Source: Phoronis australis (lineage: Eukaryota > Animalia > Phoronida). Taken from it: a DNA stretch of 64,000 nt. Each line of letters begins with the position of its first letter. Within the stretch, counting starts at the first letter, position 1. The DNA lies in assembly GCA_002633005.1 (NCBI GenBank), contig NMRA01000112.1, positions 488,437 to 552,436 on the forward strand. The letters are read 5' to 3'. Below, piece by piece: positions 1 through 21,852 of the stretch. The notes below the pieces were generated by a model, which saw only the letters and a program-made list of their open reading frames with translations, did no database searches and was not told the DNA's origin. Both the position numbers and the translations under genes were made by a program.

Positions 1-182
1 TCCACCTACGCAAATCAAGAAACGTAGGACAAAACGGCAAATAGTCTTGCATATCGCAGTTTATCCGTCTACCAGTCCCGATGTTTGATATTGCTTTTTA
101 TTTAACTTGAAGCATTATAAATAAATCGAAAATAAACATATTCGCATTCAAACTCGCGGCATTGTTTTTGTTTTCCATTTAC

Positions 183-429
183 CTAACATGATAAAACGTC
201 TGAAGTTGTGCGGTCATTGTCTTCGGGATCCGCAGCTGTCTCTTCATCCAAAGCTACCGGGACAATTGCAGGCACTGGTTCGAACCTGTAGGGCCCGTTT
301 ATGTTGTCAAGAACACGCTTACGATGGTCGTTGTGCATATCGTCTGTGTCCGACGCTTCATCGTCACAAAAGATTTTCTAAAATTTCCTCGTCGCTGGAA
401 GACTCGTCGCTAAAGCTTTCGTAATCCAT
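183..429 (-). pseudogene. Frameshifted N-terminal relic of a KolX / P2RX7-C-terminal-like (ZCD/nanor-type) transposon accessory gene
   Basis: ATG at 429 reads MDYESFSDESSSDEEILENLL*. Removing one base in the A-run at 368-371 continues as DDEASDTDD...NGPYRFEPVPAIV...DRTTSDVLSC*. An acidic N-terminus plus a PYxFEP motif is typical of this family. The Cys-rich domain is not visible in the window. Confidence 0.45.
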
Positions 430-894
430 GTTGGTTTCTGCCTTGTGTGACTGAGGTTTACCAGCCGAGTTCATTCCTACAACACAGCTGTCTTCCGGAC
501 TCGACATCACAGCCGCTTATGTAACCGCCTAGTCTGTTTTCAGAATTGACTCGGCTGAAGTCGGAGAAGGTCATTACTGCTGGGCTTATCTAATTAATGA
601 CGCTGTGCGGACAGTAACTACCCCAAGTAACGGGACCCTGCAGTGCTATTCTTTGAGTTGAAAAGCAGTTGTTTTGGTGTGAAACTATGTCTTTAAAGTT
701 CACACAACAACGACAGAAGTTTAAAACTAGTGGAACGCAACTTTTTCGTTTATAATTTCCCTTTTCGATGCATTTATAGTAAGTCAGAAGTAGACTGGCA
801 CTGTTCTAGGTTTAATAAGTTTCGTTTTATTGTTCTGTTTGTGTACTTGCAGATAACACTTGATTGACATAACCCATGAGGTCAGGCTAGGTAT

Positions 895-1409
895 GATGTA
901 ATTTGTTTACAATAGAATGGCAGGGAACATTCTAGAAATTTTCTGTATGTTAGTGATTAATGAAGTCTGGAACATGTATATGTTTGTAGAATGATTGGGT
1001 AGATTCCGTAAAGTTCTAGAATGTGCTTGAAGTGTTGAAAAGTTCCAGAACATTGTAAGAGACACGAGTCAATTCAGTTAGAGTTGAAGTTGAATACAGT
1101 TGGATTTCAATGTGAGTTAAACTCAGCTGAACTTATCATTGAGTTGCAATGAAGAGAATCAGTAGTTACAGCGATAGTCAATTAAGAGCCAGCTCTAGAG
1201 ACAGCACGGGATTTTTGAATCAACGAGTGTAACAGTTGTTGAAAGTGTCTCTAAGTCCATCGCAAGTCAAGGCTTCGCCGTACTGGATGGAGTTTAGAAC
1301 AGACGTTTTGTTTGAGTAGGCTTGTGAACGTACACTGTACGGTCGAGATTAATAAAGATATTTACTAGAACCAGTCTTCAGTCCATCGTAGTAGCACATG
1401 TCGGTAACA
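895..1409 (+). mobile_element. Putative solo LTR (Gypsy/BEL-like)
   Basis: About 515 bp with TG...ACA ends (ends gtcggtaaca), repeated ttctagaa-type motifs, an agttg-rich segment and AATAAA at 1351, about 55 bp from the end. No clean TSD found, so the left boundary is uncertain. Confidence 0.4.
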
Positions 1410-3844
1410 ACCTGCTCTCACCCTTACATGGAGAAAAACGTAACATAGTAGTAGCAAACAACTTACATATATTCTTTGATGCTGACATTTTTGTTGGGCA
1501 ATAGACGTCATTGGTTTGTGACGCCTAAAATTCATGACGTACATTGAACGTATTAGCTGACACATAAATTTACTAGTAAGTTGATGACTTTCGAAAAGAT
1601 GTGATTTTGTATTTAACGTGGCTTGTCAACTGAATGTACCATACTATACTGATATCTATTAACAAAGTAACATCTGCAGCACGGAGACATTTATGTGATA
1701 AGTATTTCTACAAACATGGCACAACTGAGATGGAAAGCGGCTGCCATTGAATACTCAAAAGAACAGAAGCTGACGTTGAATCGAAGGAAATTGGAGGCTG
1801 GTTAGCTCTGCTATCTTGCGGAGGCATCCTCCTAAAGGCAGGGAAACATTACAAGCAAATCGATGGCTAAGTTCCGAGCATACTCACGAAGCACTTCTCT
1901 TTCACTCACGTGATTTTGCTTAGTCTTGTGCGATCTCGCTTTTCTTGCAAGAAACTTTGTACGTAAATTGCTCTCCTTACCATCCAACCTCAATTAGATT
2001 TTTTATTTCTTTGCCTAGTGACATATCGAACACAATTCCAGGCTTGATAGACCAGATTACTACCACATCAACTGATATTCATTCAGACGTCCATGAGATC
2101 TATTCAAACAGATAACTGCTTGACATTCAAAGTTGCAGTGGTTTGGTGAAATATGCCACTGCACAACTGATGACGAGAAAACTATCTTCACGCGATTTAA
2201 GTGTAGTTTTGTGTTGCAAATAATAAGAATTCTGGGGGTGTTGATAAGATCGCGTTTCCAGAAATCACATGTAGTGTTGTCACCCATGTTTGCACCAACT
2301 ATTTGCATGCCATTGGTTGTTACTCAAATTCGAAGTCTAATTAGGTAATCACACCTGATGCTTATATAGGAAAGCAAGCACTGTCGAAATGATAGTGAAG
2401 TACGCGAAATTGTTTATTGTGGCGTATATTCCTGGGTATTTATTTAGGGGTCGCGAGGTTTACTACTTGGATATATTGTGTACCGGACGCACCCTCTCCT
2501 CGTTTGTTCTCCATATGCATATTACAACGTTTTATTGCAAGAAAACCCTAGCGATTTTTAATCATTCTTTACGCGTATTTTCGCAACCAATGTTTTTGGG
2601 TCAAAGATTGTCGAATGTCACTCTGTCTGCGTGTTCCCGCCCTCTGATTGGTTTGATTGTCGTGACGGAACCACCCATGCTCACTACTATTCATTTTCTC
2701 TGGAACTAATGTGGTTCGAGATCTAACTGTTTAGGGAGGGGTATCTAATGCCAGGGTAATGCGTCATTGGACATCATCCCTGAGCCTTAGTGAAAACATG
2801 ACGGCCAAAATAAGTTTACGAGCCAAGTCGGCACCTGAAGGTCACCGACGAAACTTCCGGGAAAGAGGGAGGCCACTCATCCCTTAGTCTTGGTGAAAAT
2901 GAAAGTAAAATAAGATTTACGGTATTCGTGTACGAAAATAGAAGACAGTGCTTTTATGGAAAAGCTCGGAACAATTGTTGAAGTGTTGTCTGAGATAAAT
3001 TGTCGAAATTCTTTTTAATTTTGCATTTGAAGCTATAAGCAAAGTGTCCTGCGGTTTGAGCATAAAGATTTAAAGGCCCGATGTACGCGATTAAGCTATT
3101 TTAAGATGAGTTTAAAAACTTATCATCTTTCAACCCGCAAAGAAATTTTGTTGTGTCAAGATTTTTACATGCGTGAAACCCTTGTAACGAAATATTGCCT
3201 TCAGTGAAAATTCAAGGAAAACATTGAAGACGGTATGCCATCGCACCTGTACGCCACAACAAACCTTATTTTCTGAGGCTTAAATGCATGTTTCAAAGGA
3301 TATACAGCACGATCAGACTACATCACAACACCGCTCACGCACTCATCATGAACGCAGCTCAACGGCTTGTAGTTCACTATCAATCGCAGAAACGGCACAG
3401 CAGCCACAAAACACGGCTTACGTACTCGAATAGCCCTGCTTCCGGATGGCACTTGTATGTGCGACTCACGGACTCTTTATTGAGTCATGCACGTGACTGG
3501 TAGTTCTGAAAGTTAGTAAGTTGTGTTTTGAGGTGCGTACGAAGCCGTGTTTTATTAGTGATGGACCGTGTTTGTGAGTCTGTGAACTAGGTTTACAGGT
3601 ATTAGAAGCACACCGGTGAATGCACGAGCCGTGTTGTTGGAGGTAACCAGATGATTGTGGGTAAACTCATCCGATTCACTGTCCACAGATTGATGGAATC
3701 AAGCACAAAAGTAAAAGCATGCACAAGTAAGTCACCTGAGCCCCTTTTATTAAGAGTCAAGCGTTCTGTTGTAGCTAAGTCGATGCGCGTACTGTAGGAA
3801 TGTTACTGCAAACATGACGCCATGTTTTTTGTTGAAGTCCGATA

Positions 3845-4158
3845 ATACCATTACTACTTGAACCTGGTCTGCTGAACTGTATTTGTCTAGATTCCTACTA
3901 AATTCTGTGAGACGTCTCATCTCCTTCAATTGGATGATATTAACGACTAGTGGTGAGATCTCGTTTGTCTGATGACATTGTCAATACTCTCGTTCCATGC
4001 AGACGACAATTTACATCTGCCGCCACCTAGCTTGAGCGGAGCCCCCCCCCCCCCACTATTAGACAACATCATCTCATAGAAGAAGACGAGAGGTCTCAGA
4101 GGATTTAGGAATCTAGGTTAATACAGTCCAACAAACCAGGTTCATGTTGTAATAGTAA
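3845..4158. mobile_element. Degenerate MITE-like inverted repeat
   Basis: Arm 3845-3955 (ccattactacttgaacctggtctgctgaactgtatt...ctagattcct) is an imperfect reverse complement of 4053-4158 (aggaatctag...aatacagtccaacaaaccaggttcatgttgtaatag). Confidence 0.7.
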
Positions 4159-4401
4159 AAATTTCCTGGAGGAATCAAAACTTACATTTTAGTCCGAAAG
4201 TATTCTGAGCTGGTATTTTTTCATATTTAAACTTAACACCTGCCATCTCGAACCAGTTTAATGCTGGAACCCTTTGCAAAATCAAAATTCAAGTTACGAC
4301 CGTCTTAGCTAAGGCCGGAATCACGATCTTTGTTAAAACGGCTCCCAGGTTCATTCTTATAACAGTGTCTAGGGAACCTATTCAAATGGGTTTCACAAGA
4401 T

Positions 4402-4407
4402 TTTATT
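4402..4407 (-). terminator. Candidate polyadenylation signal of the peptide-precursor gene
   Basis: First AATAAA I found on the minus strand downstream of the stop codon at 5085 (about 680 nt of 3'UTR). Confidence 0.3.
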
Positions 4408-5084
4408 CCGCTGTCATTCCATTACAACACGGATAAAGGGTCTTAAATGCAATCTCTGGACATCCCCACTGCAGGGATATTGAGCTCATACGAAGTACTG
4501 TCAAGAGAAAAATCATCACGATCACTTGGAAGGAAATGTTCACGTAGGCATAGCTCTGTTTTGGTCAGCGCTCCAACTGTCCTCTGTTTTCGTTTCGTCT
4601 GCAAATTCTTCACAACAGAACAGGGAATTGTTTAACAAGTGCAGTTTCAACAAAATATCTAATATTTGCATTCTGCTACTTTTAGCCTTGATGTGTGGTA
4701 GTTTTGTCAAGAGAGGAGTTCATTAAATCGTGCAAAACTCGACGCGGCTAATAAAACATGGCTTGATCTAAGTTGTAATTGGTGCCTTGTGCCAGACCGC
4801 CTCACACCAAACCTTCCATTCTCCTGCCTGGACAAGCAAACAACAGAGAGAAACAGACGATGAAACGAAAGTGCAAGTCATGATCAGTTCATTTTTTTGT
4901 CAAGCGTTGCCAGACAACTCCAGTTTGAGTTTTTCGCCATCATCAAATAAATGTGTTTGAACTGTCCTTGTTCTTTCAGTGTTCAATTGTCTCAGTGTAC
5001 ATGTCTTCAACGAGAAGAGGCGAAAATTCTCTCGGGCTACTTCTAAAACTGGTGAGCAGTTATCACTTCCGAAATACGTCTGGT

Positions 5085-5247
5085 TTACTGTGTCGTTGAA
5101 TAAGTTTCAACTAGTTCATCTAACTGTTTCATCAAGCGTTCGTGCTGTTCGTTGTCCACTTCCGTTTTCAAATAGGAAAGAATGTCCGCCATGTCTGCCA
5201 ACACTTTGTCGTCATCAGACATTTCTTCTGTTGATCTTTTGTCGGTC
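5085..5247 (-). CDS. Peptide precursor, terminal coding exon 7 (KR site plus acidic C-terminal spacer)
   Basis: Acceptor catttacactccag|g, phase 2; reads (K)TDKRSTEEMSDDDKVLADMADILSYLKTEVDNEQHERLMKQLDELVETYSTTQ*. Confidence 0.85.
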
Positions 5248-5341
5248 CTGGAGTGTAAATGAATGAAATGTGCAGACAAATAATAATTTAGTATTCGGAA
5301 ATGATCGGTAAAACAAGGGATGACTATATTAAAATAAAATT

Positions 5342-6279
5342 TCAGGACATGGTGTAATCGTAATACTGACCGAGGTCAATTCGGTAGGAGAAATAACACG
5401 GGCCTCCCACACTACCATGTACGCAGATGACTTACTTGTTTCGATTATTTCTAAACATTCCTGAGCCAATGCCAAGGGAAGCAAGGCGTTGTCTACGGCT
5501 AGTTTCTGACGGTATGACGTATGACGGCAGAAACGAGGCCACGCGCTTGACTGGCGAGAGAATGTCACTGGAAATTAAATACAATGATGGAAAACACGTT
5601 AGTGACCTGGTCAACTGTTCCAATTTGAAACTATTTTAAACTAACATAGTGACAGAATTCCGGACAGCTTTGAATTCTAGCCATGTCCAACACGAACGTA
5701 CATGACATTGGCAAACAGTACAGTTTGTTTTGTAAATAGTATTGGCCATTTTTAAAGCCTAACTTCAACGGAATTTTGTTATTTTAGATGTATTGGGCTA
5801 ACAAAATAGTCCTAGCAAAGCCTTAGTAAAATAAGAAAACGAGAGTTCAATCACGCAAATGTAAGCCTGTCAAATGATAAGTGAAGCTGCCTTTTCGTGT
5901 CATGTTGCGTCAGCGCGAAATCCCAGCACACACAACAAAAGGTTGTATATTGAATAGGGGTCTGAATAGAACACCATTGCGTGTGCGGGTGCTATTCGCC
6001 GCTGTTTGAATTAAAGGGTGATTCTCGCGGTGATGTAGACAAAAGCAAGCCAATGCGCCTAACAGTTCGTTACATATTTGGCAATTTATGACACTAGTGG
6101 GCCCAGAGCGATGGTCTTAACATAGTGTAGGAACCAAATTTACAGGTGTTACCGTTGAATATAGGCTTTAAAACTGCCATGAATTGGCTTCTGAGCATGT
6201 TAGTGTTCCGCCTGGTAAGACAATTAAGTATTCACTTTGAGGTGGTCAGTGCTACCGGGTAGCGTCATGCTTAATATTG
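5342..6279 (+). repeat. Near-identical duplicate of 7129-8071 across an assembly gap (probable second haplotype)
   Basis: Colinear with scattered SNPs and one 5-bp indel; both copies abut the N-run 6280-7128. Confidence 0.9.
5436..5567 (-). CDS. Peptide precursor, coding exon 6, duplicate copy (peptide 3)
   Basis: Identical to 7223-7354 except one synonymous change (Gly ggc/gga, 5471 vs 7258); both splice sites intact. Confidence 0.75.
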
Positions 6280-7222
6280 NNNNNNNNNNNNNNNNNNNNN
6301 NNNNNNNNNNNNNNNNNNNNNNNNNNNNNNNNNNNNNNNNNNNNNNNNNNNNNNNNNNNNNNNNNNNNNNNNNNNNNNNNNNNNNNNNNNNNNNNNNNNN
6401 NNNNNNNNNNNNNNNNNNNNNNNNNNNNNNNNNNNNNNNNNNNNNNNNNNNNNNNNNNNNNNNNNNNNNNNNNNNNNNNNNNNNNNNNNNNNNNNNNNNN
6501 NNNNNNNNNNNNNNNNNNNNNNNNNNNNNNNNNNNNNNNNNNNNNNNNNNNNNNNNNNNNNNNNNNNNNNNNNNNNNNNNNNNNNNNNNNNNNNNNNNNN
6601 NNNNNNNNNNNNNNNNNNNNNNNNNNNNNNNNNNNNNNNNNNNNNNNNNNNNNNNNNNNNNNNNNNNNNNNNNNNNNNNNNNNNNNNNNNNNNNNNNNNN
6701 NNNNNNNNNNNNNNNNNNNNNNNNNNNNNNNNNNNNNNNNNNNNNNNNNNNNNNNNNNNNNNNNNNNNNNNNNNNNNNNNNNNNNNNNNNNNNNNNNNNN
6801 NNNNNNNNNNNNNNNNNNNNNNNNNNNNNNNNNNNNNNNNNNNNNNNNNNNNNNNNNNNNNNNNNNNNNNNNNNNNNNNNNNNNNNNNNNNNNNNNNNNN
6901 NNNNNNNNNNNNNNNNNNNNNNNNNNNNNNNNNNNNNNNNNNNNNNNNNNNNNNNNNNNNNNNNNNNNNNNNNNNNNNNNNNNNNNNNNNNNNNNNNNNN
7001 NNNNNNNNNNNNNNNNNNNNNNNNNNNNNNNNNNNNNNNNNNNNNNNNNNNNNNNNNNNNNNNNNNNNNNNNNNNNNNNNNNNNNNNNNNNNNNNNNNNN
7101 NNNNNNNNNNNNNNNNNNNNNNNNNNNNTCAGGACATGGTGTAATCGTAATACTGACCGAGGTCAATTCGGTAGGAGAAATAACACGGGCCTCCCACACT
7201 ACCATGTACGCAGATGACTTAC

Positions 7223-7354
7223 TTGTTTCGATTATTTCTAAACATTCCTGAGCCAATTCCAAGGGAAGCAAGGCGTTGTCTACGGCTAGTTTCTGACGGT
7301 ATGACGTATGACGGCAGAAACGAGGCCACGCGCTTGACTGGCGAGAGAATGTCA
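7223..7354 (-). CDS. Peptide precursor, coding exon 6 (peptide 3)
   Basis: tttaatttccag|t ... aa|gtaagt, 132 nt, phase 2-2; (S)DILSPVKRVASFLPSYVIPSETSRRQRLASLGIGSGMFRNNRN(K). Confidence 0.85.
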
Positions 7355-8741
7355 CTGGAAATTAAATACAATGATGGAAAACACGTTAGTGACATGGTCA
7401 ACTGTTCCAATTTGAAACTGTTTTACACTAGCATAGTGACAGAATTCCGGACAGCTTTGAATTCTAGCCATGTCCAACACGAACATACATGACATTGGCA
7501 AACAGTACAGTTTGTTTTGTAAATAGTATTGGCCATTTTTAAAGCCTAACTTTAACGGAATTTTGTTATTTTAGATGTATTGGGCTAACAAAATAGTCCT
7601 AGCAAAGCCTTAGTAAAATAAGAAAACGAGAGTTCAATCAGGCAAATGTAAGCCTGTCAAATGATAAGTGAAGATGCCTTTTCGTGTCATTTTGAGTCAG
7701 CGCGAAATCCCAGCACACACAACAAAAGGTTGTATATTGAATAGTGGTCTGAATAGAACACCATTGCGTGTGCGGGTGCTATTCGCCGTTATTTGAATTA
7801 AAGGGTGATTCTCGCGGCGATGTAGACAAAAGCAAGCCAATGCGCCTTAAATTACAGTTCGTTACATATTTGGCAATTTATGGCACTAGTGGGCCCAGAG
7901 CGATGGTCTTAACATACTGTAGGAACCAAATTTACAGGTGTTACCGTTGAATATAGGCTTTAAAACTGCCATGAATTGGCTTCTGAGCATGTTAGTGTTC
8001 CGCCTGGTAAGACAATTAAGTATTCACTTTCAGGTGGTCAGTGCTACCGGGTAGCGTCATGCTTAATATTGTCGAAAGCATTAATAAGCTTAATGAATTA
8101 AAGTGCAGGGGGCATATTGTTCTTTGAAAATCGTCCTTTCCAGTCTAGTCAACAGATGACGTGTAGCGGTATCCATAAAGAAACCATGTTATAGGGTTTG
8201 AAGATTCAGCCAACAGGCACCGTAACGTGTTCTTCCCTGGTTTAGGGGTGAATACTACCCTGCTTTCTGCCCATGTTTTGAGGATGCAAACTAGTCGAAG
8301 ACTGGCTTGTAAATGGCTGTACATGCATAAAATGATGACACCTCAGCCTCATGCAGCGTTATATGTTTAGATGACGTCTAGTCCCAGGGACTCCCATTGC
8401 TAAAGTCAACTTCACAAAGTATGGTGTGGCTTTGCCTTGCAACACTACTATGGCTCACACTCCACGCGGGATTACGTCACTTCAGAACTTTACGAGAAAG
8501 TTGCACGCTATTAGGATAGTGCTTCACCATTGGCACCTCCAGTCTGTTTTCTCGGGAGTGGGAGTGGATTGACCTCAAGTTAGAGCGCTTCTTTGCTGAC
8601 AGACGTTCCTCCAGGAATTATGCTTAGCTTTACGCGTAGTGGACTTTAACAAACAATAACCAAGATGATGATATGCATCCCAAGAACGACTATATGTAGA
8701 TAATCAAATAATTTGCCGATACAAACTTGTTGCAACCATAC

Positions 8742-8834
8742 CTGGTGGTTCTTTTTCCCGGATATCCAGATGACCCTATTCCAAGGGATGTCATGCCAAC
8801 TCGCTGACCGGACGGAAGACTGTAGTAAGGAAAT
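8742..8834 (-). CDS. Peptide precursor, coding exon 5 (peptide 2, predicted Pro-amide)
   Basis: cctcctttttccag|a ... ag|gtatgg, 93 nt, phase 2-2; (G)FPYYSLPSGQRVGMTSLGIGSSGYPGKRTT(S). Confidence 0.88.
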
Positions 8835-9049
8835 CTGGAAAAAGGAGGTCTTGGTGAATTTAACTGCGCTTCTCGAAGGACGAAATAGCGGAAATAAATG
8901 ACACGGACTTATTGGTTTTATTGGTACATACTGTACACATTACGTATCAAAAGTTATCAATGCTTATTCAACGAAAGCAATTATTTGTTGTTTTGTAACG
9001 TGATGTGATATTACCAAACATGGCCAAATTGCTACCGACTATCACTTAC

Positions 9050-9175
9050 CCTGCAGTGCGTTTGCCGGCACGGAATGACATGGGAATTGCGCGAGTGCCA
9101 GCGAGGCCAAGAGAGGCGAAACCCCGACTTCTAGCACCAGATGGCAGTATGTAAAATGGAAGCGAAAACGTCTTT
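9050..9175 (-). CDS. Peptide precursor, coding exon 4 (peptide 1, predicted amidated)
   Basis: tgtactcattgcag|a ... gg|gtaagt, 126 nt, phase 2-2; KTFSLPFYILPSGARSRGFASLGLAGTRAIPMSFRAGKRTA(G). Confidence 0.88.
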
Positions 9176-9618
9176 CTGCAATGAGTACAATGACAACGTG
9201 TAATAGGTGGTGTCCATAAAACTTACGCATGTTTTAAAATGATTACCGATGACTGTCATTCATTAGCATTAATATTTTGGGGTAAAGATGCTAATTGTAA
9301 CCATGTCTTCACATATGTTAAGATAACCAAACAAAATGTACAAATCTGCCACGAACTAGGCGGCGAACAGCGAGGGATATTTGATGTCTTTGCTTATGTT
9401 CGCTCCGGCAAACAGCACACTTCTGTTAGTTATAACTGGATTGTGATGGCAGATCACGTGATGCGTTGAGCAGCACAACTTGTCATCGAAAGACGGGTTG
9501 TTTACGTTTCATAAATTCACTTAAACAGACTTTTCGATGTCGTTAACTTGACGCAATGTTTCGTGACAGGTAAAACTAAATGAACAACGTCAAACAGGCA
9601 GAAAACAATGCCACTCAC

Positions 9619-9729
9619 GTCATTGATAACCTGATGTATTTGAAATAGAATTCGCTGATTGTGGCTGCTGTTGACGGCGGTGATGATGGTTGTCCATAGG
9701 AGAATACATGACTTGCAAAGAGATTACCT
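9619..9729 (-). CDS. Peptide precursor, coding exon 3
   Basis: tgttttcgtacattag|a ... ac|gtgagt, 111 nt, open only in phase 2; GNLFASHVFSYGQPSSPPSTAATISEFYFKYIRLSM(T). Confidence 0.75.
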
Positions 9730-9823
9730 CTAATGTACGAAAACAAACAGCTTAAAGATGAGAGGTGCGCCTTAAAATTGTGAAAAAAGGGGAAAAACAT
9801 GGTGCTTAATGATGCCAACTTAC

Positions 9824-9913
9824 GGTTTTCCCGTGTCTGTGAAATGTTCTTTTTCTTCTTTAAAGCCCTTGCCGTCCTCTGTGAGTTTGTCTGTGTTAGC
9901 ATCGTTAATATTT
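9824..9913 (-). CDS. Peptide precursor, coding exon 2 (charged propeptide)
   Basis: ctgttttgcaatttcag|a ... cc|gtaagt, 90 nt, phase 2-2; NINDANTDKLTEDGKGFKEEKEHFTDTGK(P). Confidence 0.78.
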
Positions 9914-12900
9914 CTGAAATTGCAAAACAGGATAGATAACTCACTCTACGAAATCAGTTTAATGAATAATAGTTAAACAGACTCTCAGACACAATCAATT
10001 TTGATGCCATAGGATGTCTGCCTTGTTGATATCTGGCCAGATTTTAATTTGTGCAGCTGCTGAAATATTGAAATAAAATCAAATTGACGGATTTTACATA
10101 AGTGCGTTTCGGTTCATCGTAGTCAAAAGCGACGCAGTGTGAATTTGAACACAAACCAGTGTAGTCAAATTTTTTTTCCAATTGATTATTTCCTCAGGGC
10201 GTCACTTTTTTCGAAAGAAACTGAAATGAACATGGGGTGATGATTTTTTTTTATTTTATGAGAGTGTACGTAAATGGCAGCCAATGCTAATTGAAACCAA
10301 ACGTGAATTCGTAATATTGTGTAAAAAAACACAGGGCTATGGTTTACGAAGTATATGAATATTTAAACAAGAGCATTTCGTGAATTATTGAATTTTTCGT
10401 CTTTGGGTTGGTGAGGCTCGTGCTGTGTTCTAAATTGGCAAGAAAAAAGAAAAAAAGAATTATAAGATATCGACTCAGATGTTAAAGCCAACCACTTTCC
10501 AATGTCTTTATAATATGATAAACCACTAAACACAAACCCCGGCAGAAGTGATAAGACAAGAATACAAACGCATAAAAATCATCAAATCGAGTAACGTTAT
10601 TGATTTAATTGTTTGTTACGATCGCTAGTTTTATCGTTGAACAACCACATAGAAATCTATTAATCATAATATTTCCCGCGGAAATCCCAGATTAACCAGA
10701 TAACCTGCCGGTAATTAATCTACGAGAAATGTTCTATTGTTTCAAAACTGTCATAAGTATTCTTTTATCAGCTATGTATAACCGAGTAAGCAAATTCCCA
10801 GAAGCTTGACCAAGCCAATAGGCACTTGACGATTTTAACGGTCCTTGACTGTGATTACAGAATTAATGTTTCGATCGGAAATCGTGTAAACCGCACAGAT
10901 GTGATCTGGTTCAGATGGGCTGAGTAATTATGCCAATATTTGATCAAATTTAAAGTACCAAATGTCACTGATAACAACAGTGTATGTTTTATAAAGATAT
11001 CTTCTGGTGTAATATATGACAAACTTTAAATATCTTTTATCAAAAAATATTTTGTAAATTATTTTCACACACTACAAAAAAAATAATTATCACCAAAGCC
11101 TAGACGTCTTAAAAATGAAGATGTAACGTAACGATTCGAGTTTAAAAGTTGCTCTTTTTACAACGGTGTCATACCACGTGTTTCTATTGGCGAGAAATCA
11201 GAAAAAACTGCTTTAGTTCGGAATATTGTTTCTACCGGAGGAAGTTGGAGTTCAGTACTCTACGGTCACACTAGGGACGTCTTCAATTTTGTGAGTTTTT
11301 ACTCTAGCTAACCGGAAAACACAGTGAGAATTTCCGAGTTTGAAATAGAGGCACTGGTTCTGCATTACACACAGCGCCATTTTCGGCGCATGGAATGTTG
11401 TCGTTTGGAGGGTGGTGAATATTACGTTCATCAGACTAAAACAACGTATCCATGAACAAGTCACAGCCAGTTCAAACGCCGTTTTTAGGCTCACGGAGAC
11501 AACGCAACACAGAATTGACTATAGACATGCTGAAAATACCTAGTCTATGACTCCTTATCCCTGAACCTCCGTTTCTACGTTAACACCAACTCGACCGGTT
11601 TGTGAGCCTCAAATTCTGCAGCAAAGATCAAAGATTTCACCACGCAGTTGCCTCAGGCTGCTTATATTATCGTTCTTTAGATAATTAGACCCATCATAAA
11701 CACGCTGGGGGCGATGAATTTATTTTTTAATTTTTGGTTTTGGAAAGTTTTAAATAGCATATTTGAATAGTTTGTGAAAAGTACACGTGGTTTGCTGCTT
11801 GAAGTTTGAAAATCGGACAAGAATTGTGATTCTTACAACTAATGTTGTCAGTATCTTGCTTCTCATCATTATTTGGGCCAATTACTAAACCAGCAGACAG
11901 CAGTTGGATTTTGAGGCAACCCAAGTGTCATCGTACAGTTCTTGGCATTTCATCACATGCTAAGTCACTGCTGATTCATGAGCTCAATTCCGTTTAAAAA
12001 TAATGTTACATTAACACAGCTACACCTGTGGCCTTGACGTTCTATGATTCTCACCAGTTATGAGCACCATAGTCTTCTGTAGAACCATTTATTAGTCAGC
12101 GTATAGTCTATGACAGAAGTTCAGAAATGGTAATATTCTCGTGAGATGTTTTGTCGTTTTATTTCTATTGCAACAGGCAGGTACCTCGTCCAAAGGTTAG
12201 GAATGACTTCACTTCTAATCTAACTAAGGGACAATTAAACATTAATTTTAGCGATTCGCCCCTTATATAATAGGTTTTTCATTGTAAGCGGGTTCATAGT
12301 TGGTGTCTGTTTTAAAAAACAACACTTTCGAAAGCTGCCTGGTTTGTGCCACTCTCAGATAAGTGACAACAAAAGCCATTTGCTTGAGTTAACGCTGCTA
12401 AAACTCGACTTCCAACACAAAACAACTTTTGGTTTAGAACACTTTCTGTTATCGGGCAAGTTGAAGATGATTTCAGGATTTTGAATGAACTGGCATTTCG
12501 CTAGTACTTGAGATCAAGCTTTACAAGATGGCTTTAGAAGTTGGTTTGTCATGGCGAGTTATTTTATGCGTCGAGCATGTTCTCGCGGAATAACGAACTT
12601 CAGTTCTTTACGAATTCACAACTCCCTTCTCCTCTGAATAAGGACCAAATTGTGGTCAATTATAAAACGAAAAGTAGTTTGAAAGTTCGCTTGTTTGATG
12701 GAACTCGGTTTATAGCCGCTTTAACAGCTACATGTACTTCCGTCAATTATATTTTGTCATAAAAAGCGAACAATGTCTCTTTAAAAATGAATGTTTCTGT
12801 GCTGTCTGAATCTCTTATTTTAGTGGGAGACTAAACGGATCAAAGGCATGCGTGAGTGATCAGGTTTGGCAAATAAATGCAAATAGGCTAAAGGCACTGG

Positions 12901-13558
12901 TTGCGTGTTTCAATCACGACGGTTATAACAGATACCGAGTAGCAAAGCTCGTGCACTTTTTCATAGTTGAAATTAACCTTATCAATTATTATGCAGTCCC
13001 TGTAATTTAATAGTCAGATGATATGACAAACAATTCTTGACGACCTTTTGCTTTTGCAGCTTACTGTCGTCGTCATTAGGATTTTGATGTATTGAGGTAC
13101 AATTTAGTAAGTATTACTTCAATTATGTGGGCTCAAGTTGACAAGAAGCTCAATAACTTGCGTGCTTTCCATTTTGAAAGGAAAGACTGAACATCGGACG
13201 TAGGCTTCTTCATGTTCACCAGTTAGTCTGACATTCGTCATGTGCGCAGTACTAAAACATGAGACGTATGTCCAGTAGTGTACTCGCATCAAAAGTGCAG
13301 ACGAGGTGCGACACAAAATTAAATTCCCTACGAAACTGTACTCTTTGAGACTTACGGCCAGGTTTACTGAAATTGCTACTATCTGTAAACGTTACTGCTA
13401 TACAACTCTGCGAAAGGATGACTTTATCAACTGAAGATATCTACGTAGGCGCCACCTTTTCTTTGTCCACTTTCCAACCAAGTTGCACATGCCGCAACAA
13501 TAGCGGAGTTTCCCTGTAATACACTCACGAAAGTATAAAGTAGCAAAAAGTAACTTAC

Positions 13559-13629
13559 CTAATGGAGGCGCATTTTGCCAGTCCAATAATTCCTACACAG
13601 CAGACGATGAATGTTCGCGTGATGTCCAT
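13559..13629 (-). CDS. Peptide precursor, coding exon 1 (signal peptide)
   Basis: Exon 13640-13559 (ttttgtattttcag| ... ag|gtaagt). ATG at 13629 gives MDITRTFIVCCVGIIGLAKCASI, a hydrophobic core with a plausible A-K-C cleavage site. The phase-2 donor matches all downstream exons. Confidence 0.82.
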
Positions 13630-16600
13630 TTCCAACTACTCTGAAAATACAAAACCACAAAATTACGATAAATTTAGCAAACTTCAAAAGCACAATTACA
13701 AAAAAGAATTCTGCTACACGACCACAGAGCAAGGAGTAGATTCTAGAGTTTTTAATGAAATATTTTGCTACGGCGCTTGTAAAATTCACTGTTTCTCTGA
13801 AACTATAAAGGTAATATTATTTTACATTTCAAATCCAAAAGGATAATCTCAGTCTCACTGCCGGTTACACTGGCGCTTTCTTGCAAATGTGCCTGCCTTA
13901 CTATAGTTCACAACATTAATCACTGATTACTGTCTATCAAGAGCCTCATTAAGTATAACCTGGCTTGTGAAATCACTGCTCGCTTCAAGGATGTGTAAAT
14001 GTCAGTGTTTGTGACAATATTTGCCCAAGAATGTCAAAGTTTCCGAGTTTGTACAATAGAGATATATCAGAAAAACAAGTGTATATAATTGTTGGCGTCG
14101 AAACTGTTAGAAATTTTGCGTAGTACAGTCGCAGTTCGCCGACGGAGACGTGCACTTAAGTTATCTTACAGACGCGGAGGATGTTTGAAAGTCTCAGTTT
14201 TGCGGGGGAAATTCCACTTATTTACACGTATTGTAAATTAGTTTAAGTTTAGTGTTGATGCTATCCTGTTTGTTTATTTCCTTCGCTACAGTCATTCCAA
14301 TTGTTTCATGAGATTAGTTTTTTGCTTTGACATTTAAAGATTGCGTTTATTAATCGCCCAAAATCTACTTTTTTGTGGCACAGATCCTATTAAGGTGCGT
14401 CATATCATGCATAAAGTTGTTTCGGCGTGTTATTGTAGAGTTCAGAGTAAAATATCGCTGAAAGGTCCGAAAACATCCTGCAGGTAGGGATTGCTACGCG
14501 TGTCTGAGTTTTCGTTTGAATGTCTGTCTCGCATTAGCTAAGGCACGACACTTTTCTAAGAAGCCACGCGTGCATTCTGTAGACGAAATACCTCAAGAAA
14601 ATGTAAGATCCTGCAAGACTTCGCGAGATATCGTCATGTATTAAAAGCGAGCCATGTGATCACGCTAGTTTCTTTCGCGAAATGCATGCATCTACGAAAC
14701 TAAAACGTTAAATAGACCTAGTTTCTTAGCAGGCACTGTACTGGGTTTTGCCTGGCAGTGCACACGTCAAAGAATTTCATGCCTGACTGGCGAAAACTCT
14801 CTAACAGCATCGAAAGTTTTGAGTGGTTTCACATCAAAACCGCTCTGCTTGACAACAGAAACTTTTCCTCCGAAAGAGGTTGCGAAAAAAGGAAAATTGT
14901 CAGTTTCATGCAGCCCCAAACCACCGTTTTCCTGCCAATGCTTGACAAAAGCCAATCTATTGTTCTGAAAGAAAATTTTCTTCAGATTCTAAAAATGGAC
15001 TTTAAAACTATTATCGCCTGACTAGATTTTTTTTTGAAATTCTGTTTTGTATGAGCGCAACCTAAAATCGGTGCAAATTTCCCAGTTGCTACGGAGATAT
15101 ACAGCACAAGTATAGTTGGCGCCATTTTGAAGGAAGTGTATCTATAGCCGAACTAATGATTTTTTCTCATTTCCAATATGTTCCCTATTACAACCAAACC
15201 AGATTTTAAACCTAATGGTAATGCCTGCTTTAAATTTTCCGCCAAATCTGGCCTACCCCAAATACTTAATTTAACAAAACCCCTGCTGAATATGATAACG
15301 TGTCCCACGACATGTGACACTGCTTCAAAGATAATTAATTTATCATTGAAATGTTGACTTTACAGATTGTTTCTAAATAAATTTACTTGATTAGGTTATC
15401 AAATATTTTCTTAATTGTCTTAATTAATTTACAAGTTGTACCATTTCAAGCACTCGAAAGCCCACGTCAAATATGAATTTAAATTATGTTTAATATCGGA
15501 AATGTTACGCATTTAATCCGGAGAAGCCCATCTGTACACATATTGATCACAAAAATTAATACTTTATTAATATACTATAAACTGTGGAAATTACGGCATA
15601 CTAAGTCTATAAGAAATAAAGTTAATCTGTTTAAACTTCCTTAAAGACCAGGGAGGTACTTAGGTTAAGGCTGGGCAGTTTACACTCCTATGATCAACCC
15701 TTTTTGATCATTTTAGTGAAAACTGCGATTAAAAATCGATAACAACTCCGGAACCGCTTGCATAAGAATAAGTCTGATGACGTAAATAATGACATCACAC
15801 AATTGCACATGTATCACATTTCCCTTTTGTTGAATCATTGTTTGTTGCGTCAGACAACAAACAGCGCCACCCAGCTTACAATTGCTTTCATGAAGTCCAG
15901 GATTGCATTCCGAAGAGCAAGTTCTCTGCTAGAAAAATGACACCACACAAGTCTCCACGAAATATCGCCGCGCAGACCAGGGCCGAGTAGCACAAAGCTT
16001 CAAAAGTTATCCGCTGGATAAGTTTGATTGTTGCATGAGTCAGGTGCATTGTTCAAGAATAACAACGTGACGCGTGATAATACGACGTCATTGTTGCTTA
16101 ACGGCGTATAATTTTTATGTATCTGGGCCCAGGTCACCACTGTGAGTTACATGAGGTTTCAGTCGTCAACACGGTGTTGGCGTCAGGGGAAATTTAGACA
16201 CTGAATTGTTACCAATTTGAAAGGAAGACACCAGGGCATGGTCTATAGCGGCAGCTAAGAATTACCGTCGACCATTATTTATTGTTAACGTTATCACACA
16301 CAAAGATGGATATGTATTTTGATTTTTTACCAATCTGCCATTAATTTGCTCACGTAACCATGTTAGAAAAAAATCAGAAAAAAGAACGTCACTTGGTATC
16401 AATTACACAACCAAGTTTCGTTAATATAAATTTTCAACAGTTTTCTAAAGTAGCATTCCGTTGCAACTTTTGATTTTTTCATGAATATTATAAAAGCATC
16501 AATTTTGGTACTGCCTCATGCAAACGTCGACCAATTTAAACAATTCTTAAATGCGTTTTGGAGAATCGTGTATCTGAAAGTTTATGGTAAATTTAATAAG

Positions 16601-16684
16601 CCACTTCTGATATATGATGTTTCAAAATCAGCCAAACTCGGAAATTTTTCAAGGTCCTACATAATTTTAAAATTATTTACTTAC

Positions 16685-16778
16685 CAACGGATGAATCTAT
16701 TGATATATTCCACAAGTCGAGCTGGTCCAATTTTAATCAAACTATTATGTGAACGTCTTAGTCAATCTACCTTTTATG
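16685..16778 (-). promoter_or_regulatory. Candidate core promoter and non-coding first exon of the peptide-precursor gene
   Basis: CATAAAAG at 16778-16771, Inr-like TAGTT near 16743, then an ATG-free ~59-nt stretch ending in the strong donor ttg|gtaagt at 16685. The exon at 13640 has an acceptor and so needs an upstream exon. Confidence 0.4.
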
Positions 16779-18300
16779 CAGTTGCAACGCCACCGCGCGA
16801 TTGAACGTCACACACTTTAAGGAAATGCGCGTGCGCTTGACCGAGACGATTCAATATTGACTTTTTTCAAACGCCTTGTTACCGTTCCCATCAAGCGTGT
16901 AGTTCCGGTACTTGAAGTAACTCCAGGTTTCTTGTAGAGTCTTAATGACGCAGACGACCGTCTTTGACCGGAATAGAGGGTGTCGTCCTCTTGACTAAAC
17001 CAACCAATTGTTTAAATAAATGATAAGAAGTGTGAGACGTTGACCGTATGACGCAACGAGTAGCATTTTGTCGAATATTTATAACAGTAGTGTATCAATG
17101 ATACTTGGCTAAAGCGCAACGGTCTAGTAAACTAAGTATTTATATATCAGGGTATAATAAGTTTTACGGTTAAAAACGCACTTTTAGGATTATTTTTGGA
17201 TGAGGTAGAGGTTTTGAACTCATTAGCTTTGTCCAGAGCCATAAAACGACCAACTCTGTTATGTTTGAAATTTACAACAAATCACTGTTGTCTGCAGCTC
17301 ATACATTCGGTGAAATAAGGCTGGCACTTTTACCAGTGAATAAGCTTTAAATATTAAATGGGGTTTACAGGAACATTATCGTTTTTGCTCCCGAAAAACG
17401 CAATTTTGAGGTTATTGTTGAATGGAGTAGATTTCTTGATGTTATAAGCTTTGACCAGTGTCACAAAGCATCAAAATCGGTTGTGTCAGAATGAGTATTT
17501 GTTACGTATATGTAATTTGTAAGGAATCGCCACAAAATAGGTGTCTAATCTTTTGGTGCTATCGTGTTTACAAACGACTTTATCTAAAACATGCATCACC
17601 AGTTTATTTCTCTTATCTTTTATTCATTTTATTTACTGCTTAACATGTTTCATGTTTGTTGCCAATCACTTATACGTACTGTGAAAATATATACAGGATA
17701 TGAAATTATTTTAGTTTGTTAAAAGGGGCTGTGAACCTGACACCAAATTTTGACTTAAACCACTTACAAGTAGGAAACTGGTCTGAAATTGTTCTTTGAT
17801 AAAATTAAAGATGATTCCAGGGCTCCGACAGCGCAGCTTGTTATTGCTACAAGACTGTTGACTTCTCATGGCACGTCATTTTATGCGCCGCGCACGGTCT
17901 CAAGGAACAACGAATTCTTCATTCTTTGCCTGCCCACATACCACCTCCCATCTGAGTAAGGAACAAGTTGAGACCAATTTTGTAGCGGCAAGTCAAAAGT
18001 TAGCTTGTCGGACAGAACGCGGGACTATGTCCGGAAATATTTTACTTCAGAAGCTGAGTCAGGGTAGTTTTGTCCATGGTCGCCACTCATTTCAGACCAA
18101 TATTTGGGTTGATTTCCGTAGGCGCAAGAATCTCACTAGGCAAGCTGCTGCATTGTGTAAAACGACACGTCATAACTTTGTCTCCAAATTAAACAACTTC
18201 TTGGACGGGCCACACAAAGTGTAAATTGTTCGGTTCTATCAACATTGTTTTAATTACTCCATCTCAGCAACAAGCTGGTTCAATCAATGGAGGTACCACT

Positions 18301-18442
18301 CATGGGCGGCGTACCATAGGAGGATGGGGAGCTGTAGCCCCCATTTTTTCAGGACTGCACCGCTCATGGTCTATGGGTGGTGCACCACAGGGGGCTGGGG
18401 GTTATAGACCCCCCCACTTATTTCATTGCTGCAACGCCCATG
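18301..18442. mobile_element. 142-bp hAT-type MITE
   Basis: TIR catgggcg/cgcccatg flanked by a perfect 8-bp TSD gtaccact (18293-18300 and 18443-18450). Confidence 0.88.
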
Positions 18443-18688
18443 GTACCACTAAACTGCATTTTTACGTTACTGAAACCGGTCGGCATACGAACAAAATTTC
18501 ATTGTTCTTAATTCAGTATAACTTTTACACGGTAACCGGCCAAGCCATCTAATTGGTCTGTAAGCCGAAAGCTGTCATCGAGAGGCAACCAGATGTGAGT
18601 CACTTGCCGACATTGGCCAATGGTTGTCCAAAAGAAGAATGGAAGTGCTTAACTGCTAGATCATTTTGAATTAACGCACAAATATGCC

Positions 18689-18932
18689 TTAAAGTGGAAC
18701 TTGCACGCTAATTTCTTATCTCTGTGATTGCTTGGCCAATTTAGTTAGAAACACAACATATAGCAACGATTATGAAGTAGGTCGAAAATTGCCAAATGTT
18801 TTTAAGAACGAGTTTTGTGTCGAAGATGATCCGCCGTAAATCACACAACCGTATGCAGTAAGTATCGTAACGTGGTGTTGGGGAATAACACTGCATGATG
18901 CGGGATATGTGAGCCCCCTAGGCACGTCATTA
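18689..18932 (+). mobile_element. Terminal fragment of a dispersed DNA-transposon-like repeat (TTAA-flanked, Kolobok-like)
   Basis: Starts ttaa|agtggaacttgca; a diverged reverse-complement copy lies at 51744-51976. Confidence 0.6.
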
Positions 18933-19687
18933 GTCTAATGTCACCTACTTGCAGATTTTTTTGTTTTCACATTGACAAGTTGTCAGTGAATACCACTGCA
19001 CTTTGTTTTGCGTAGATGATGCTCAAATAGCATTGTCGTTTAGTTTCTGCTGTGCGTGTACATTAGCACAGTTAGGAACATGCAAACACACCTTTAATGC
19101 CCTCATCGTGTAGTCTTCGCAAATTTGATACCTGAGCATCAGGTGCACGTCTGGCGCTTTTTGGTTAACATGCACCTAACCATATTGTTCTCACAAGCTA
19201 TATTATATATTCTGGAAATCGCGAGACATTACTACTCCCTAAGGTTCAGATGTTTTGAAGGGGTTTAAGTGTTGAAGCTGTCTTTCTGAATATAAAAAGC
19301 TGGTCTAATTTTCTCTTGAAATCTGTGCATGGTGTGCGTAGTATGGTAAGGCTCTTGTTTTCAAATGTTACACGTATCGTCTGCACGCATTTTAAAATGC
19401 ACACAATGCACGGATTTCCAGAGAAATCTAGATCATGTTTTCAAAGCCATAAAGACAACTTTAAGAGAATGCTTGCCCCTTCCTCCATACCCCGTAACTT
19501 CAGGATTATGTCTCAGTACTCGTCTGGTAATATAACCGCTGGCAAGGAAATAGTTTTGGTGCATGCTAGTAAAGTCAGATTTAAAAGAACTGCACCTCGC
19601 CTTCCCTAACAAAAATGACCGAGGTCCCTAAAGCATAAATCCAGAACTTTGAAGCTTTATGATGTGTACATGTATAACAACTTTATC

Positions 19688-20125
19688 TTGCAAGTAGTTT
19701 ATACCGTTCAATCCGCCATCTTTTTATCACATCACGCGACCTAATGTATATAAGTCCGAAAAGTTTTCGGCCCCCGACAGGGACTCGAACCCAGGACTTT
19801 CTGCTAACCGTGCAGACGCTCTAGCCACTGAGCCATCGGGACCACTGGTCAGACACAGAAATCCAATCGGACTTAGTAGTGGGCATCTTGCACCATGATC
19901 TCCATTGTGTATGTAAATATCTTTTTCAGTGAGGCGTGGAATATGTTGCAAGTAGTTTGTCCCGTTCAGTCCGCCGTCTTTTTGATCACATCACGTGACC
20001 TAATGTATATAAGTCCGAAAATATTTCTGCTCCCGACCGGGACTCGAGCCCAGGACCTTCTGCTAACCGTGCAGACGTTCTAGTCACTGAGCCATCGGGA
20101 CCACTGGTCAGACACAGAAATCCAA
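19688..20125 (-). repeat. Tandem dimer (259-bp period) of a tRNA-derived repeat
   Basis: Units start at 19688 and about 19946; each contains a tRNA-like cloverleaf with A and B boxes on the minus strand. Confidence 0.85.
19771..19842 (-). pseudogene. tRNA-like sequence (pseudo-tRNA/SINE head; nominal anticodon GGT)
   Basis: gtcccga-tg-gctc-agtggcta-gagc-g-tctgc-acggtta-gcaga-aagtc-ctggg-ttcgagt-ccctg-tcggggg. A box TGGCTCAGTGG, B box GGTTCGAGTCC. Lacks U33 and has a 1:72 mismatch. A more degenerate copy lies at 20030-20101. Confidence 0.75.
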
Positions 20126-21436
20126 AGTTTGGCTAAGAACATTAACAAGAATGGAACAACCACCATCTACGTTCTGTAATTTATTTCATTTGAAAGACTT
20201 TACATCCGGGCTCTAAGCACCCATCATATTCGGAGTCTGACAAATGAATTTATAGACAGCCTCTATTTCAAGCCACGAAGTTGTACAAGGATAAGGAAAC
20301 CCATATGCATCCTAAGACGACTGCTGCAGGAAACCGCATGAAGGCCACAGAGGCTGAAACGGAAATGTACAATCTCGGTTACAAACTTGAAAAGAAATCA
20401 TGTTTTGTCCTACACGACTAGTTTGCTCTAATATCTATTCTGCAGTGACTCACCAACTCAATGCGGTTTTAGAAGGGTATCTTTTACAGGATATATGTCG
20501 ACATGTACACAAAAATATTCCTAAATATGAAGTACCAGAAAACGGATTCACACGGAACTTATGGTGCTCTTTCGTTCCAGCAATCCAAAGTTTGTTTGCT
20601 TGTTTTGCAGAGCATACAGATAGCAAACTGTCAACGAGTTGTGTGTACAACAAAGAAATTTAAAATTTTGGCTAAAAACACAAACCGCCTTTCGTACACA
20701 GCGCATATGTTGTACGTTGTGCTTGTTTTTTGGATCATTTGAAAGCTGAGATCTGTTTTTGTAAAGATTAAATAAATCCTTCGTTGTTTCCGTCATTTAG
20801 AATCTAATGTGATTTTACAACTTCAGTGCGTTGCAAAACTGCATGCTGGGCTTTCTGAACTAGGAAAAACACCGCCAATTCCTAGAAGACTATTTCCTGG
20901 TAACCTTCTTCATACCTGGAGCATGATTGTATTTGTATTGTGACACTCTGTTAGCTCTTTTCTAAGTTAAATTCATATGTCTACAGACATAATCAGGTCT
21001 GGTTTCACACTTATGCAAGAAGGGAATTATGGACCTACCCAGTGACGAATACTCGAGGCCTCCACAATATAAAATGTAGAGGCCCGACAATTTCACCTGC
21101 TCGCTAAATATTTCGACCTACTCCTCCTACTAGCCACAATAATTCCCACCGGAGTCATCAACCCTCCCCCCTCCCCGTTCACCACAATGTTCTTTCCACC
21201 CCAATCCAGGCCCTAAGCCGAGGCTAATTTAGCCCAACGGACGATCTGGGCCGGTAATAGTCGGATATACAGTGCCCGCTTTTTGAGAACTAGTTTTCTC
21301 CACTGAATAACGGGCATCAGTTGATTCTGACTATTGCTCCCGTGTATCTCCTGGCATCGTCAAATTTTGAAGATGCCTCCTCTTCAGTGCATTAAAGCGG
21401 GGTGGAAAAAACACTAATTTCCATTATTCAAAGTGG

Positions 21437-21686
21437 TTAAATTCCACTGAAACACAAGTCAAACTGTTCATCAAATATTTTTATGGTTTGTTCGTAGAAA
21501 ATTTGAATTTCCGTTGATGTCGAAGCATTTTTCCTTTAGCTTCAAATTTCGAAAAAGAGATCTGTCAACTGCTCTTCATTTCGTCGATTTTTCTCCCACA
21601 CGGCAAAGCACGTATCATTATTTGGTGTGGCAAGACATATACGTAGCACATTTCCCTAATATGGAAAATGTGACCTTTGACCTTTG
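21437..21686 (+). repeat. Dispersed repeat fragment
   Basis: Diverged direct copy at 32840-33115 (shared gatctgtcaact...ggcaagacat...gaaaatgtgacctttga). Confidence 0.7.
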
Positions 21687-21852
21687 ATTTCATTTCGATT
21701 TCAGGTAGCTGCCTGACTAACTCCTTTGAGCGCATACGCGCATTTATATTTATTAAGGGCGGAGAGTTTGAAAACGGTTAGGGATGAACGTTTACTTTAA
21801 ATTAGGTTTGTTTCAAAAAATTTTGAATAAAATTGTCGGATTCAGTATTTAA

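What the first reader, a model, noticed from the sequence alone, without database searches (positions are those of the whole stretch)
5085..13629. Spliced gene for a candidate new neuropeptide/peptide-hormone precursor
Seen: seven minus-strand exons (13629-13559, 9913-9824, 9729-9619, 9175-9050, 8834-8742, 7354-7223, 5247-5085), all GT-AG and all joined in phase 2, give a 786-nt CDS (261 aa) that the ORF track does not recover as a unit. It has a signal-like N-terminus (MDITRTFIVCCVGIIGLAKC), a charged propeptide, three related peptides and an acidic tail. The peptides are P1 ...LPFYILPSGARSRGFASLGLAGTRAIPMSFRA-GKR, P2 KR-TAGFPYYSLPSGQRVGMTSLGIGSSGYP-GKR (28 aa) and P3 KR-VASFLPSYVIPSETSRRQRLASLGIGSGMFRNNRNKTD-KR (38 aa). 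Shared pattern: [LF]P-x-Y-x-[LI]PS-(R-rich)-[FML][AT]SLG[LI][AG]. Established: KR is the prohormone-convertase site and G-KR signals PAM amidation. Inference: a multi-peptide precursor that I cannot place in a described family.
Basis: partly seen in the sequence, partly recalled or inferred. Interest (0 to 1): 0.9.

Follow-up and report, generated by a model that had tools for sequence, protein, structure and literature searches.

The report
Unassigned three-peptide hormone precursor gene
This is a spliced, transcribed gene of an unidentified invertebrate animal, one exon shorter than first proposed, whose protein is likely secreted and predicted to be cut into three related signalling peptides that match no peptide family checked here.

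Summary
The gene is real. All seven proposed exons have AG/GT ends and join in phase 2. RNA from 4 runs in 2 studies confirms 4 of the 6 proposed junctions and adds a non-coding first exon. The three peptide exons are homologous (z 5.7-8.1 against shuffles); exon 3 is not. The layout is that of a prohormone: one hydrophobic N-terminal stretch, four KR sites, two of them G-KR, and an acidic tail. P1 has no N-terminal KR. No relative was found (profile against 1.84 billion proteins, Pfam, PDB, Atlas, four neuropeptide supplements), but an exon of the neighbouring CatSper-beta-like gene also found nothing, so the blank is weak. The nearest look-alike, by eye, is spiralian NKY, whose defining Trp core, Tyr-amide and single terminal peptide are not met. 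Secretion, cleavage, amidation, neural expression and receptor are inferred. Verdict: ordinary mechanism, unassigned peptide motif, organism unknown.

The parts
16685..16721 (-). Non-coding first exon (only its last 37 nt are seen; 5' end unknown)
   Evidence: Joint 13640-16685 in an X1 contig and 2 X2 reads; GT donor at 16684
13559..13640 (-). Exon with 11 nt of 5' UTR, ATG at 13629 and predicted signal peptide (aa 1-20, 13629-13570)
   Evidence: in-frame stop upstream; hydropathy peak 2.97, the only stretch above 1.5; cleavage site inferred from the recalled -3/-1 rule
9824..9913 (-). Exon 2, charged propeptide
   Evidence: Spliced on both sides
9619..9729 (-).
   Evidence: Skipped by the 9824-9175 joint; no likeness to the peptide exons; up to 0.7 such candidates expected in the 8.9 kb of introns scanned, 1 found
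9050..9175 (-). Exon 4: P1 (about 9174-9067, net +5), Gly, KR, start of P2
8742..8834 (-). Exon 5: body of P2 (28 aa, ends 8759, net +1), Gly, KR
7223..7354 (-). Exon 6: spacer, KR, body of P3 (38 aa, net +4, no amidation Gly)
5436..5567 (-). Second copy of exon 6 (one synonymous difference), inside a 943-bp block repeated across the N gap; likely the other allele assembled in tandem
   Evidence: 5342-6279 matches 7129-8071 at 97.5%; each run shows only one of the two letters (X1, X4 one; X2, X3 the other) and no exon 6-to-6 joint is listed
4402..5247 (-). Last exon: end of P3, KR, 49-aa acidic tail (net -10), stop at 5087-5085, 3' UTR to about the AATAAA at 4407
   Evidence: Joint and coverage; AATAAA; charge

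Best explanation
The gene is spliced into a 224-residue protein that is likely a neuropeptide or peptide-hormone precursor: a predicted signal peptide would send it into the secretory pathway, prohormone convertases would cut at four KR sites, and the amidating enzyme would cap P1 and P2, releasing three related peptides predicted to act on a G-protein-coupled receptor. Shown: the exon chain, expression, the KR/G-KR positions and the homology of the three peptide exons. Inferred: the three arose by duplication of a phase 2-2 exon; the shared core (P-x-Y-x-[LI]-P-S, then S-L-G-[LI]) and not the divergent C-termini is the receptor-binding part; the acidic pro-segment and tail are spacers or sorting elements. 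It cannot be assigned to a described family.
For: Splicing and expression in 2 studies, with all junction reads on the strand expected for a minus-strand RNA. One hydrophobic N-terminal stretch, no other membrane-like segment. KR at aa 92, 123, 134, 174, the first two preceded by Gly; no Cys after the signal peptide; acidic flanks. Peptide exons homologous, flanks not; exons 5 and 6 are also alike as DNA (z=6.4), 4/5 and 4/6 hardly (z 2.1, 1.6), so the protein motif is better kept than the DNA. The motif is kept while net charge ranges from +1 to +5, which suits a receptor ligand better than a membrane-active peptide (inference). KR cleavage and Gly amidation are established knowledge; PC2 and PAM roles are stated in PMC10508912 (passages).
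Against: No SignalP, mass spectrometry, tissue data or receptor. P1 has no dibasic site in front of it in the RNA-supported model; P3 is not amidated and holds an internal RR; the three C-termini differ, unlike most multi-copy amidated neuropeptides (recalled). No orthologue was found, so conservation of the cleavage sites is untested. The tissue of the runs is unknown.
Confidence: 0.68

Rival explanations
1. A highly diverged, triplicated relative of spiralian neuropeptide KY (NKY).
For: By eye against NKY-1 precursors in the supplement of PMC8557429: similar length (35-43 aa) and Gly/Ser/Pro-rich make-up; P1 starts with K-T, carries L-P-x3-R-x3-F-x-S in register and ends F-R-x-G-K-R; P3 shares P-x-E-T, R-L-x-S and I-G-S-G with one nemertean NKY. 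The two P1 motifs together occur in 1 of 200000 shuffles and once in the window's six frames.
Against: Those motifs were drawn after seeing both sequences, after about ten families had been looked at; the core motif misses P2 and P3. NKY's diagnostic C-terminal Tyr and FW[RQ]P[LM]G or WIWMP cores (PMC6425005) are absent; P1-P3 have no Trp. NKY is one peptide at the precursor's end, not three in the middle. The profile of P1-P3 found nothing among 1.84 billion proteins. Part of the P3 match lies in a region that varies among NKYs.
Confidence: 0.12
2. A precursor of host-defence (antimicrobial) or venom/mucus peptides: cationic peptides kept inactive by acidic pro-pieces.
For: P1 +5, P3 +4, flanked by acidic segments (-2, -10); amidation is common in such peptides (recalled).
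Against: P2 is only +1; hydrophobic moments are modest (0.36-0.60, lower than the tail's 0.77) and no Cys; a shared sequence motif is kept rather than charge; expression is low to moderate (about 2-20 reads deep in 1.6-1.8 Gb).
Confidence: 0.09
3. A diverged ligand precursor for class B1 (secretin/PACAP/glucagon/PTH-type) receptors.
For: One peptide per exon, grown by exon duplication, as described for the secretin family and the three-peptide amphioxus PACAP/GCG gene (PMC7251081, PMC9049855). Lengths of 28 and 38 aa. All-phase-2 introns in those vertebrate genes is my recollection; one search found no paper stating it. The acidic tail loosely resembles the helix of iPTH/QSGamide precursors by eye.
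Against: No likeness of P1-P3 to the three amphioxus PACAP/GCG peptides or to iPTH/QSGamide; Pro/Gly-rich rather than helical; no Pfam hormone family at E up to 10.
Confidence: 0.06
4. A secreted repeat protein that is not processed into signalling peptides.
For: Processing is not shown; P1 lacks an N-terminal KR.
Against: Two G-KR and two further KR sites bracket P2 and P3 exactly; no structural domain, no Cys.
Confidence: 0.05

Closest known systems
Neuropeptide KY (NKY-1) of nemerteans, brachiopods, phoronids, annelids and molluscs (PMC8557429 supplement; PMC6425005)
   Same: Long (35-43 aa) Cys-free, Gly/Ser/Pro-rich peptide; P1 begins with Lys and ends F-R-x-amide; loosely similar L-P...R...S core (by eye).
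   Different: No Trp core, no Tyr-amide; three copies in mid-precursor followed by an acidic tail, versus one peptide at the C-terminal end.
Secretin/PACAP/glucagon-type precursors, including amphioxus PACAP/GCG (PMC7251081, PMC9049855)
   Same: Gene plan: several related peptides on duplicated exons; three peptides of about 30 aa.
   Different: No sequence likeness; peptides not helical-looking; no Pfam match.
Unassigned, lineage-restricted neuropeptide precursors such as starfish Arnp21-Arnp25 (PMC4772807, section 3.4 part 2)
   Same: Signal peptide, dibasic sites, amidation glycines, no family assignment: the same status as this gene.
   Different: Shorter precursors (83-157 aa); four of the five have Cys pairs; none is described with three Cys-free related peptides. 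Their sequences were not compared (figures not held).

Membership tests
Neuropeptide/peptide-hormone precursor (general kind) | Spliced, expressed coding gene | tested here: met
Neuropeptide/peptide-hormone precursor (general kind) | N-terminal signal peptide | tested here: inconclusive
   Single hydrophobic stretch at aa 5-17; no SignalP available
Neuropeptide/peptide-hormone precursor (general kind) | Dibasic sites and amidation Gly bracketing peptides | tested here: met
   4 KR, 2 G-KR; met for P2 (both ends) and P3 (no amide); P1 only at its C-terminus
Neuropeptide/peptide-hormone precursor (general kind) | Mature peptides detected; neural/endocrine expression; receptor | not testable with these tools
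   Needs LC-MS/MS, in situ hybridisation, deorphanisation
NKY | N-terminal Lys | tested here: inconclusive
   P1 exon starts with Lys but the cut site is unknown
NKY | C-terminal Tyr-amide | tested here: not met
   P1 ends Ala-amide, P2 Pro-amide, P3 unamidated
NKY | FW[RQ]P[LM]G or WIWMP core | tested here: not met
   No Trp in P1-P3
NKY | Single peptide at the precursor's C-terminal end | tested here: not met
   Three internal peptides plus tail versus the NKY precursors seen
NKY | Significant profile match or shared intron positions | not testable with these tools
   No NKY profile or gene model was available as a stored sequence
Secretin/PACAP/glucagon | Peptides on duplicated exons | tested here: met
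Secretin/PACAP/glucagon | Sequence motif of the family or of amphioxus PACAP/GCG | tested here: not met
   By eye; Pfam blank
iPTH/QSGamide (PXXXamide) | N-terminal S-D start with helix; Pro at -4 | tested here: not met
   Pro at -6 in P1 and -1 in P2; no such helix in P1-P3
Calcitonin/DH31 | C-terminal Pro-amide (recalled) | tested here: met
   P2 only
Calcitonin/DH31 | N-terminal Cys ring (recalled) or Pfam family match | tested here: not met
   0 Cys in P1-P3; Pfam blank
Kisspeptin (echinoderm/vertebrate KPP1) | Two coding exons with a phase 1 intron | tested here: not met
   Six coding exons, all phase 2 versus PMC9400282
PrRP / NPY-NPF | RF/RY-amide; phase 1 intron in the peptide (PrRP) or intron in the C-terminal Arg codon (NPY/NPF) | tested here: not met

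The most novel reading that the evidence does not exclude
The gene is a triplicated, Trp-less relative of NKY in a non-spiralian animal (the neighbouring CatSper-beta-like gene fits a deuterostome or cnidarian as well as a brachiopod). That would push NKY, described as lophotrochozoan-specific and without a settled receptor, back to the bilaterian ancestor and give a route to its receptor.
Probability: 0.08. Interest if true: 0.8.

Novelty: new member of a known kind. Interest (0 to 1): 0.5.

Why it matters
It supplies an RNA-corrected gene model and three synthesisable candidate ligands with an unassigned motif, ready for peptidomics and receptor screens. Many invertebrate peptide GPCRs lack known ligands (hemichordate kisspeptin-type receptors, PMC9400282; the NKY receptor question, PMC8557429 and 10.1101/712687). 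It is also a clean case of peptide copy number grown by symmetric exon duplication. The mechanism is conventional, and unassigned precursors are common, so the value depends on finding orthologues and a receptor.

Tried and rejected
No whole genome is held, so no paralogue or receptor search. Word-based protein searches: exon 4 (16 candidates, 0 at E<=10), last exon (6 candidates, 0), CatSper-beta-like exon as a control and for the clade (21 candidates, 0). Profile of the three peptide exons against 1.84 billion representatives: 0 at E<=0.001. PDB: best hit a 15-residue match to a lectin, CrataBL (E 0.0087), taken as chance. Pfam: 291 ORFs plus 4 exon translations at E<=0.05 and 7 exon translations at E<=10: no hormone family; weak hits on the tail (Sec6, Mre11_C_bact) are below cut-off. 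Atlas: no usable hit for P1; only generic beta-propeller clusters for the neighbour exon. Metagenome scans: tail, 0 of 409 stretches; one search was given an ORF in the wrong frame over exon 4 and says nothing. Papers: six peptide strings, 0 papers. Short motifs in supplements of PMC8557429, PMC9793003, PMC10508912 and PMC5627052: no matching precursor; a stretch of an ophiuroid precursor propeptide seen beside a hit looks faintly like P3 and was rejected (low complexity; I take it for kisspeptin from its ending, and the gene plan differs). Earlier findings: nothing by place, relatives or sequence; the 8 of 37 word hits shown concern other loci. Exon 3 as a decayed fourth repeat: it holds Y-x-x-P-S but scores at chance level (p 0.26-0.98). 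Likenesses to neuropeptide S, neuropeptide B/W, QRFP, galanin and catestatin came from memory, were not tested and are not used. The run listing held no holder on record as RNA; evidence comes from the lays. No structure or complex was predicted.
Full report
Observation. The seven exons are at the stated coordinates, each with AG before and GT after, all joined in phase 2, giving 786 nt and an open 261-aa frame. An in-frame stop 9 nt upstream fixes the ATG at 13629. The three peptide-bearing exons are homologous as proteins: Smith-Waterman z-scores 8.1 (exons 4/5), 7.2 (5/6) and 5.7 (4/6) against 5000 shuffles; the remaining 12 of 15 pairs are at chance level. Their alignment has 10 invariant columns.

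RNA. One 2015 run held as contigs (X1, guessed RNA) and three 2026 raw RNA runs of a second study (X2-X4, 18-19% of each read) were laid on 7132-22000 and 3900-6279. Junctions, as X1 contig plus X2/X3/X4 reads: 16685 to 13640 (2/0/0), 13559 to 9913 (12/3/5), 9824 to 9175 (6/0/2), 9050 to 8834 (2/2/0), 8742 to 7354 (2/1/1), exon 6 to 5247 (12/3/0). All junction reads have the first mate on +, which in most stranded libraries means a minus-strand RNA. The two that touch exon 3 are not listed; exon 2 joins exon 4. Coverage of the bin holding exons 2 and 3 is explained by exon 2 alone. A stop-free phase 2-2 candidate like exon 3 is expected up to 0.7 times in the introns scanned and was found once. 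Seven weaker joints were not shown, so rare inclusion remains possible. The supported model is 675 nt, 224 aa. The 3' UTR is covered to about the AATAAA at 4407. Three X3 reads use a later donor at 5371, which would end the protein at a stop just after exon 6.

Assembly. 5342-6279 repeats 7129-8071 at 97.5% across an 849-nt N gap, so exon 6 appears twice with one synonymous difference. X1 and X4 show only one letter there, X2 and X3 only the other, and no 6-to-6 joint is listed. I infer two alleles assembled in tandem.

Anatomy. The only hydrophobic stretch is at aa 5-17; a cut after Cys20 follows from the recalled -3/-1 rule. Then a 34-aa charged segment, P1 (36 aa if it starts at Lys55, net +5) ending Gly-KR, P2 (28 aa, +1) ending Gly-KR, a 9-aa spacer, KR, P3 (38 aa, +4) ending KR without Gly, and a 49-aa tail of net -10. 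There is no dibasic site before P1, and P3 holds an internal RR. No Cys follows the signal peptide.

Organism. Not identified. Three colinear weak Pfam hits to CATSPERB_2nd on the + strand at 47721, 52076 and 60492 (E 0.001, 0.00014, 0.0097, all under the cut-off), one also weakly to CatSper-beta in PDB (E 0.27; the third exon gave no such hit), suggest a CatSper-beta gene in a CpG-poor zone (o/e 0.3-0.6 against about 1.0 elsewhere). PMC6660944 (passages) lists CatSper in tunicates, amphioxus, echinoderms, brachiopods, cnidarians and ctenophores, and not in molluscs. With mosaic CpG depletion this points to a marine invertebrate of one of those groups or their relatives (inference).

Search for relatives. 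None was found: protein collections; Pfam; PDB; Atlas; metagenomes; paper text; supplements. The precursor itself was not found although it is expressed, and the CatSper-beta-like exon also found nothing. These collections probably lack this species and its close relatives, so the blank argues against close similarity to well-sampled families but does not prove novelty.

Mechanism. Most likely a prohormone: secretion, cleavage at KR, amidation of P1 and P2, action on a GPCR (0.68). The gene chain and motif are shown; the processing steps follow from established convertase and PAM specificity; receptor type and role are inferred. The kept core with variable charge and variable C-termini suggests an internal recognition motif.

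Comparison. It works like any multi-peptide prohormone, and its one-peptide-per-exon plan resembles the secretin/glucagon genes (PMC7251081 and PMC9049855, passages), but the sequences differ from amphioxus PACAP/GCG (supplement passage) and iPTH/QSGamide (PMC7224569 passages; PMC8557429 supplement part 26). The closest likeness by eye is to NKY-1. A post-hoc motif pair is rare in shuffles (1 of 200000 for P1) but misses P2 and P3, and three defining NKY features fail (PMC6425005 passages). Kisspeptin, PrRP and NPY/NPF gene plans fail too (PMC9400282 and PMC7314547 passages). It is therefore filed under no family.

Papers seen. Passages only: PMC7314547, PMC10508912, PMC9049855, PMC7251081, PMC8557429, PMC7224569, PMC6188537, 10.1101/712687, PMC6425005, PMC13551398, PMC6660944, PMC9400282, PMC5627052. 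PMC4772807: abstract, outline and section 3.4 part 2. Supplements: motif searches in PMC8557429 (1 file; parts 26 and 27 read), PMC9793003 (7 files; main text not read), PMC10508912, PMC9049855, PMC5627052. All other papers: search listings only. Figures were not available.

Verdict. A real, expressed gene with a corrected model; very probably a peptide precursor; family unassigned; mechanism ordinary. New member of a known kind, interest 0.5. The boldest reading left open, an NKY relative outside Spiralia, has probability about 0.08.

Noticed in passing
window 8124-9115 and 4700-4860: Reads of the opposite orientation (first mate on -, so probably a + strand RNA) cover these stretches 9-27 deep in X2 and X3 and are absent in X4; they overlap exons 4-5 and the 3' UTR. 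Possibly an antisense transcript.
   Followed up: no
window 47721-47912, 52076-52312, 60492-60713 (+): Three colinear weak hits to CATSPERB_2nd: probably exons of a CatSper-beta gene within a CpG-depleted block at about 40-60 kb.
   Followed up: partly
window 5342-6279 / 7129-8071; also 21845-24922 and 22930-26338: Near-identical blocks beside N positions; the first behaves as two alleles assembled in tandem, the others (90-93%) were not examined.
   Followed up: partly
window 5371: Minor alternative donor (3 reads in X3) that keeps an in-frame stop right after exon 6 and would remove the last KR and the tail.
   Followed up: no
window 27505-27720 (-): Ser/Thr-rich open frame after an AG, ending in an acidic C-terminus, with AATAAA downstream; weak Mucin hit (E 0.013). 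Possibly the last exon of another gene.
   Followed up: no
window 45374-45670 (+): Reverse transcriptase fragment (RVT_1, E 4e-11), probably a decayed retroelement.
   Followed up: no
window 19769-19842 (-): tRNA-Thr call inside a locally repeated, highly covered element; possibly a tRNA-derived SINE.
   Followed up: no
window 5088-5234 (-): The acidic tail looks like two amphipathic helices (moment 0.77) and loosely resembles helical parts of iPTH/QSGamide precursors by eye; not significant by any test run.
   Followed up: partly
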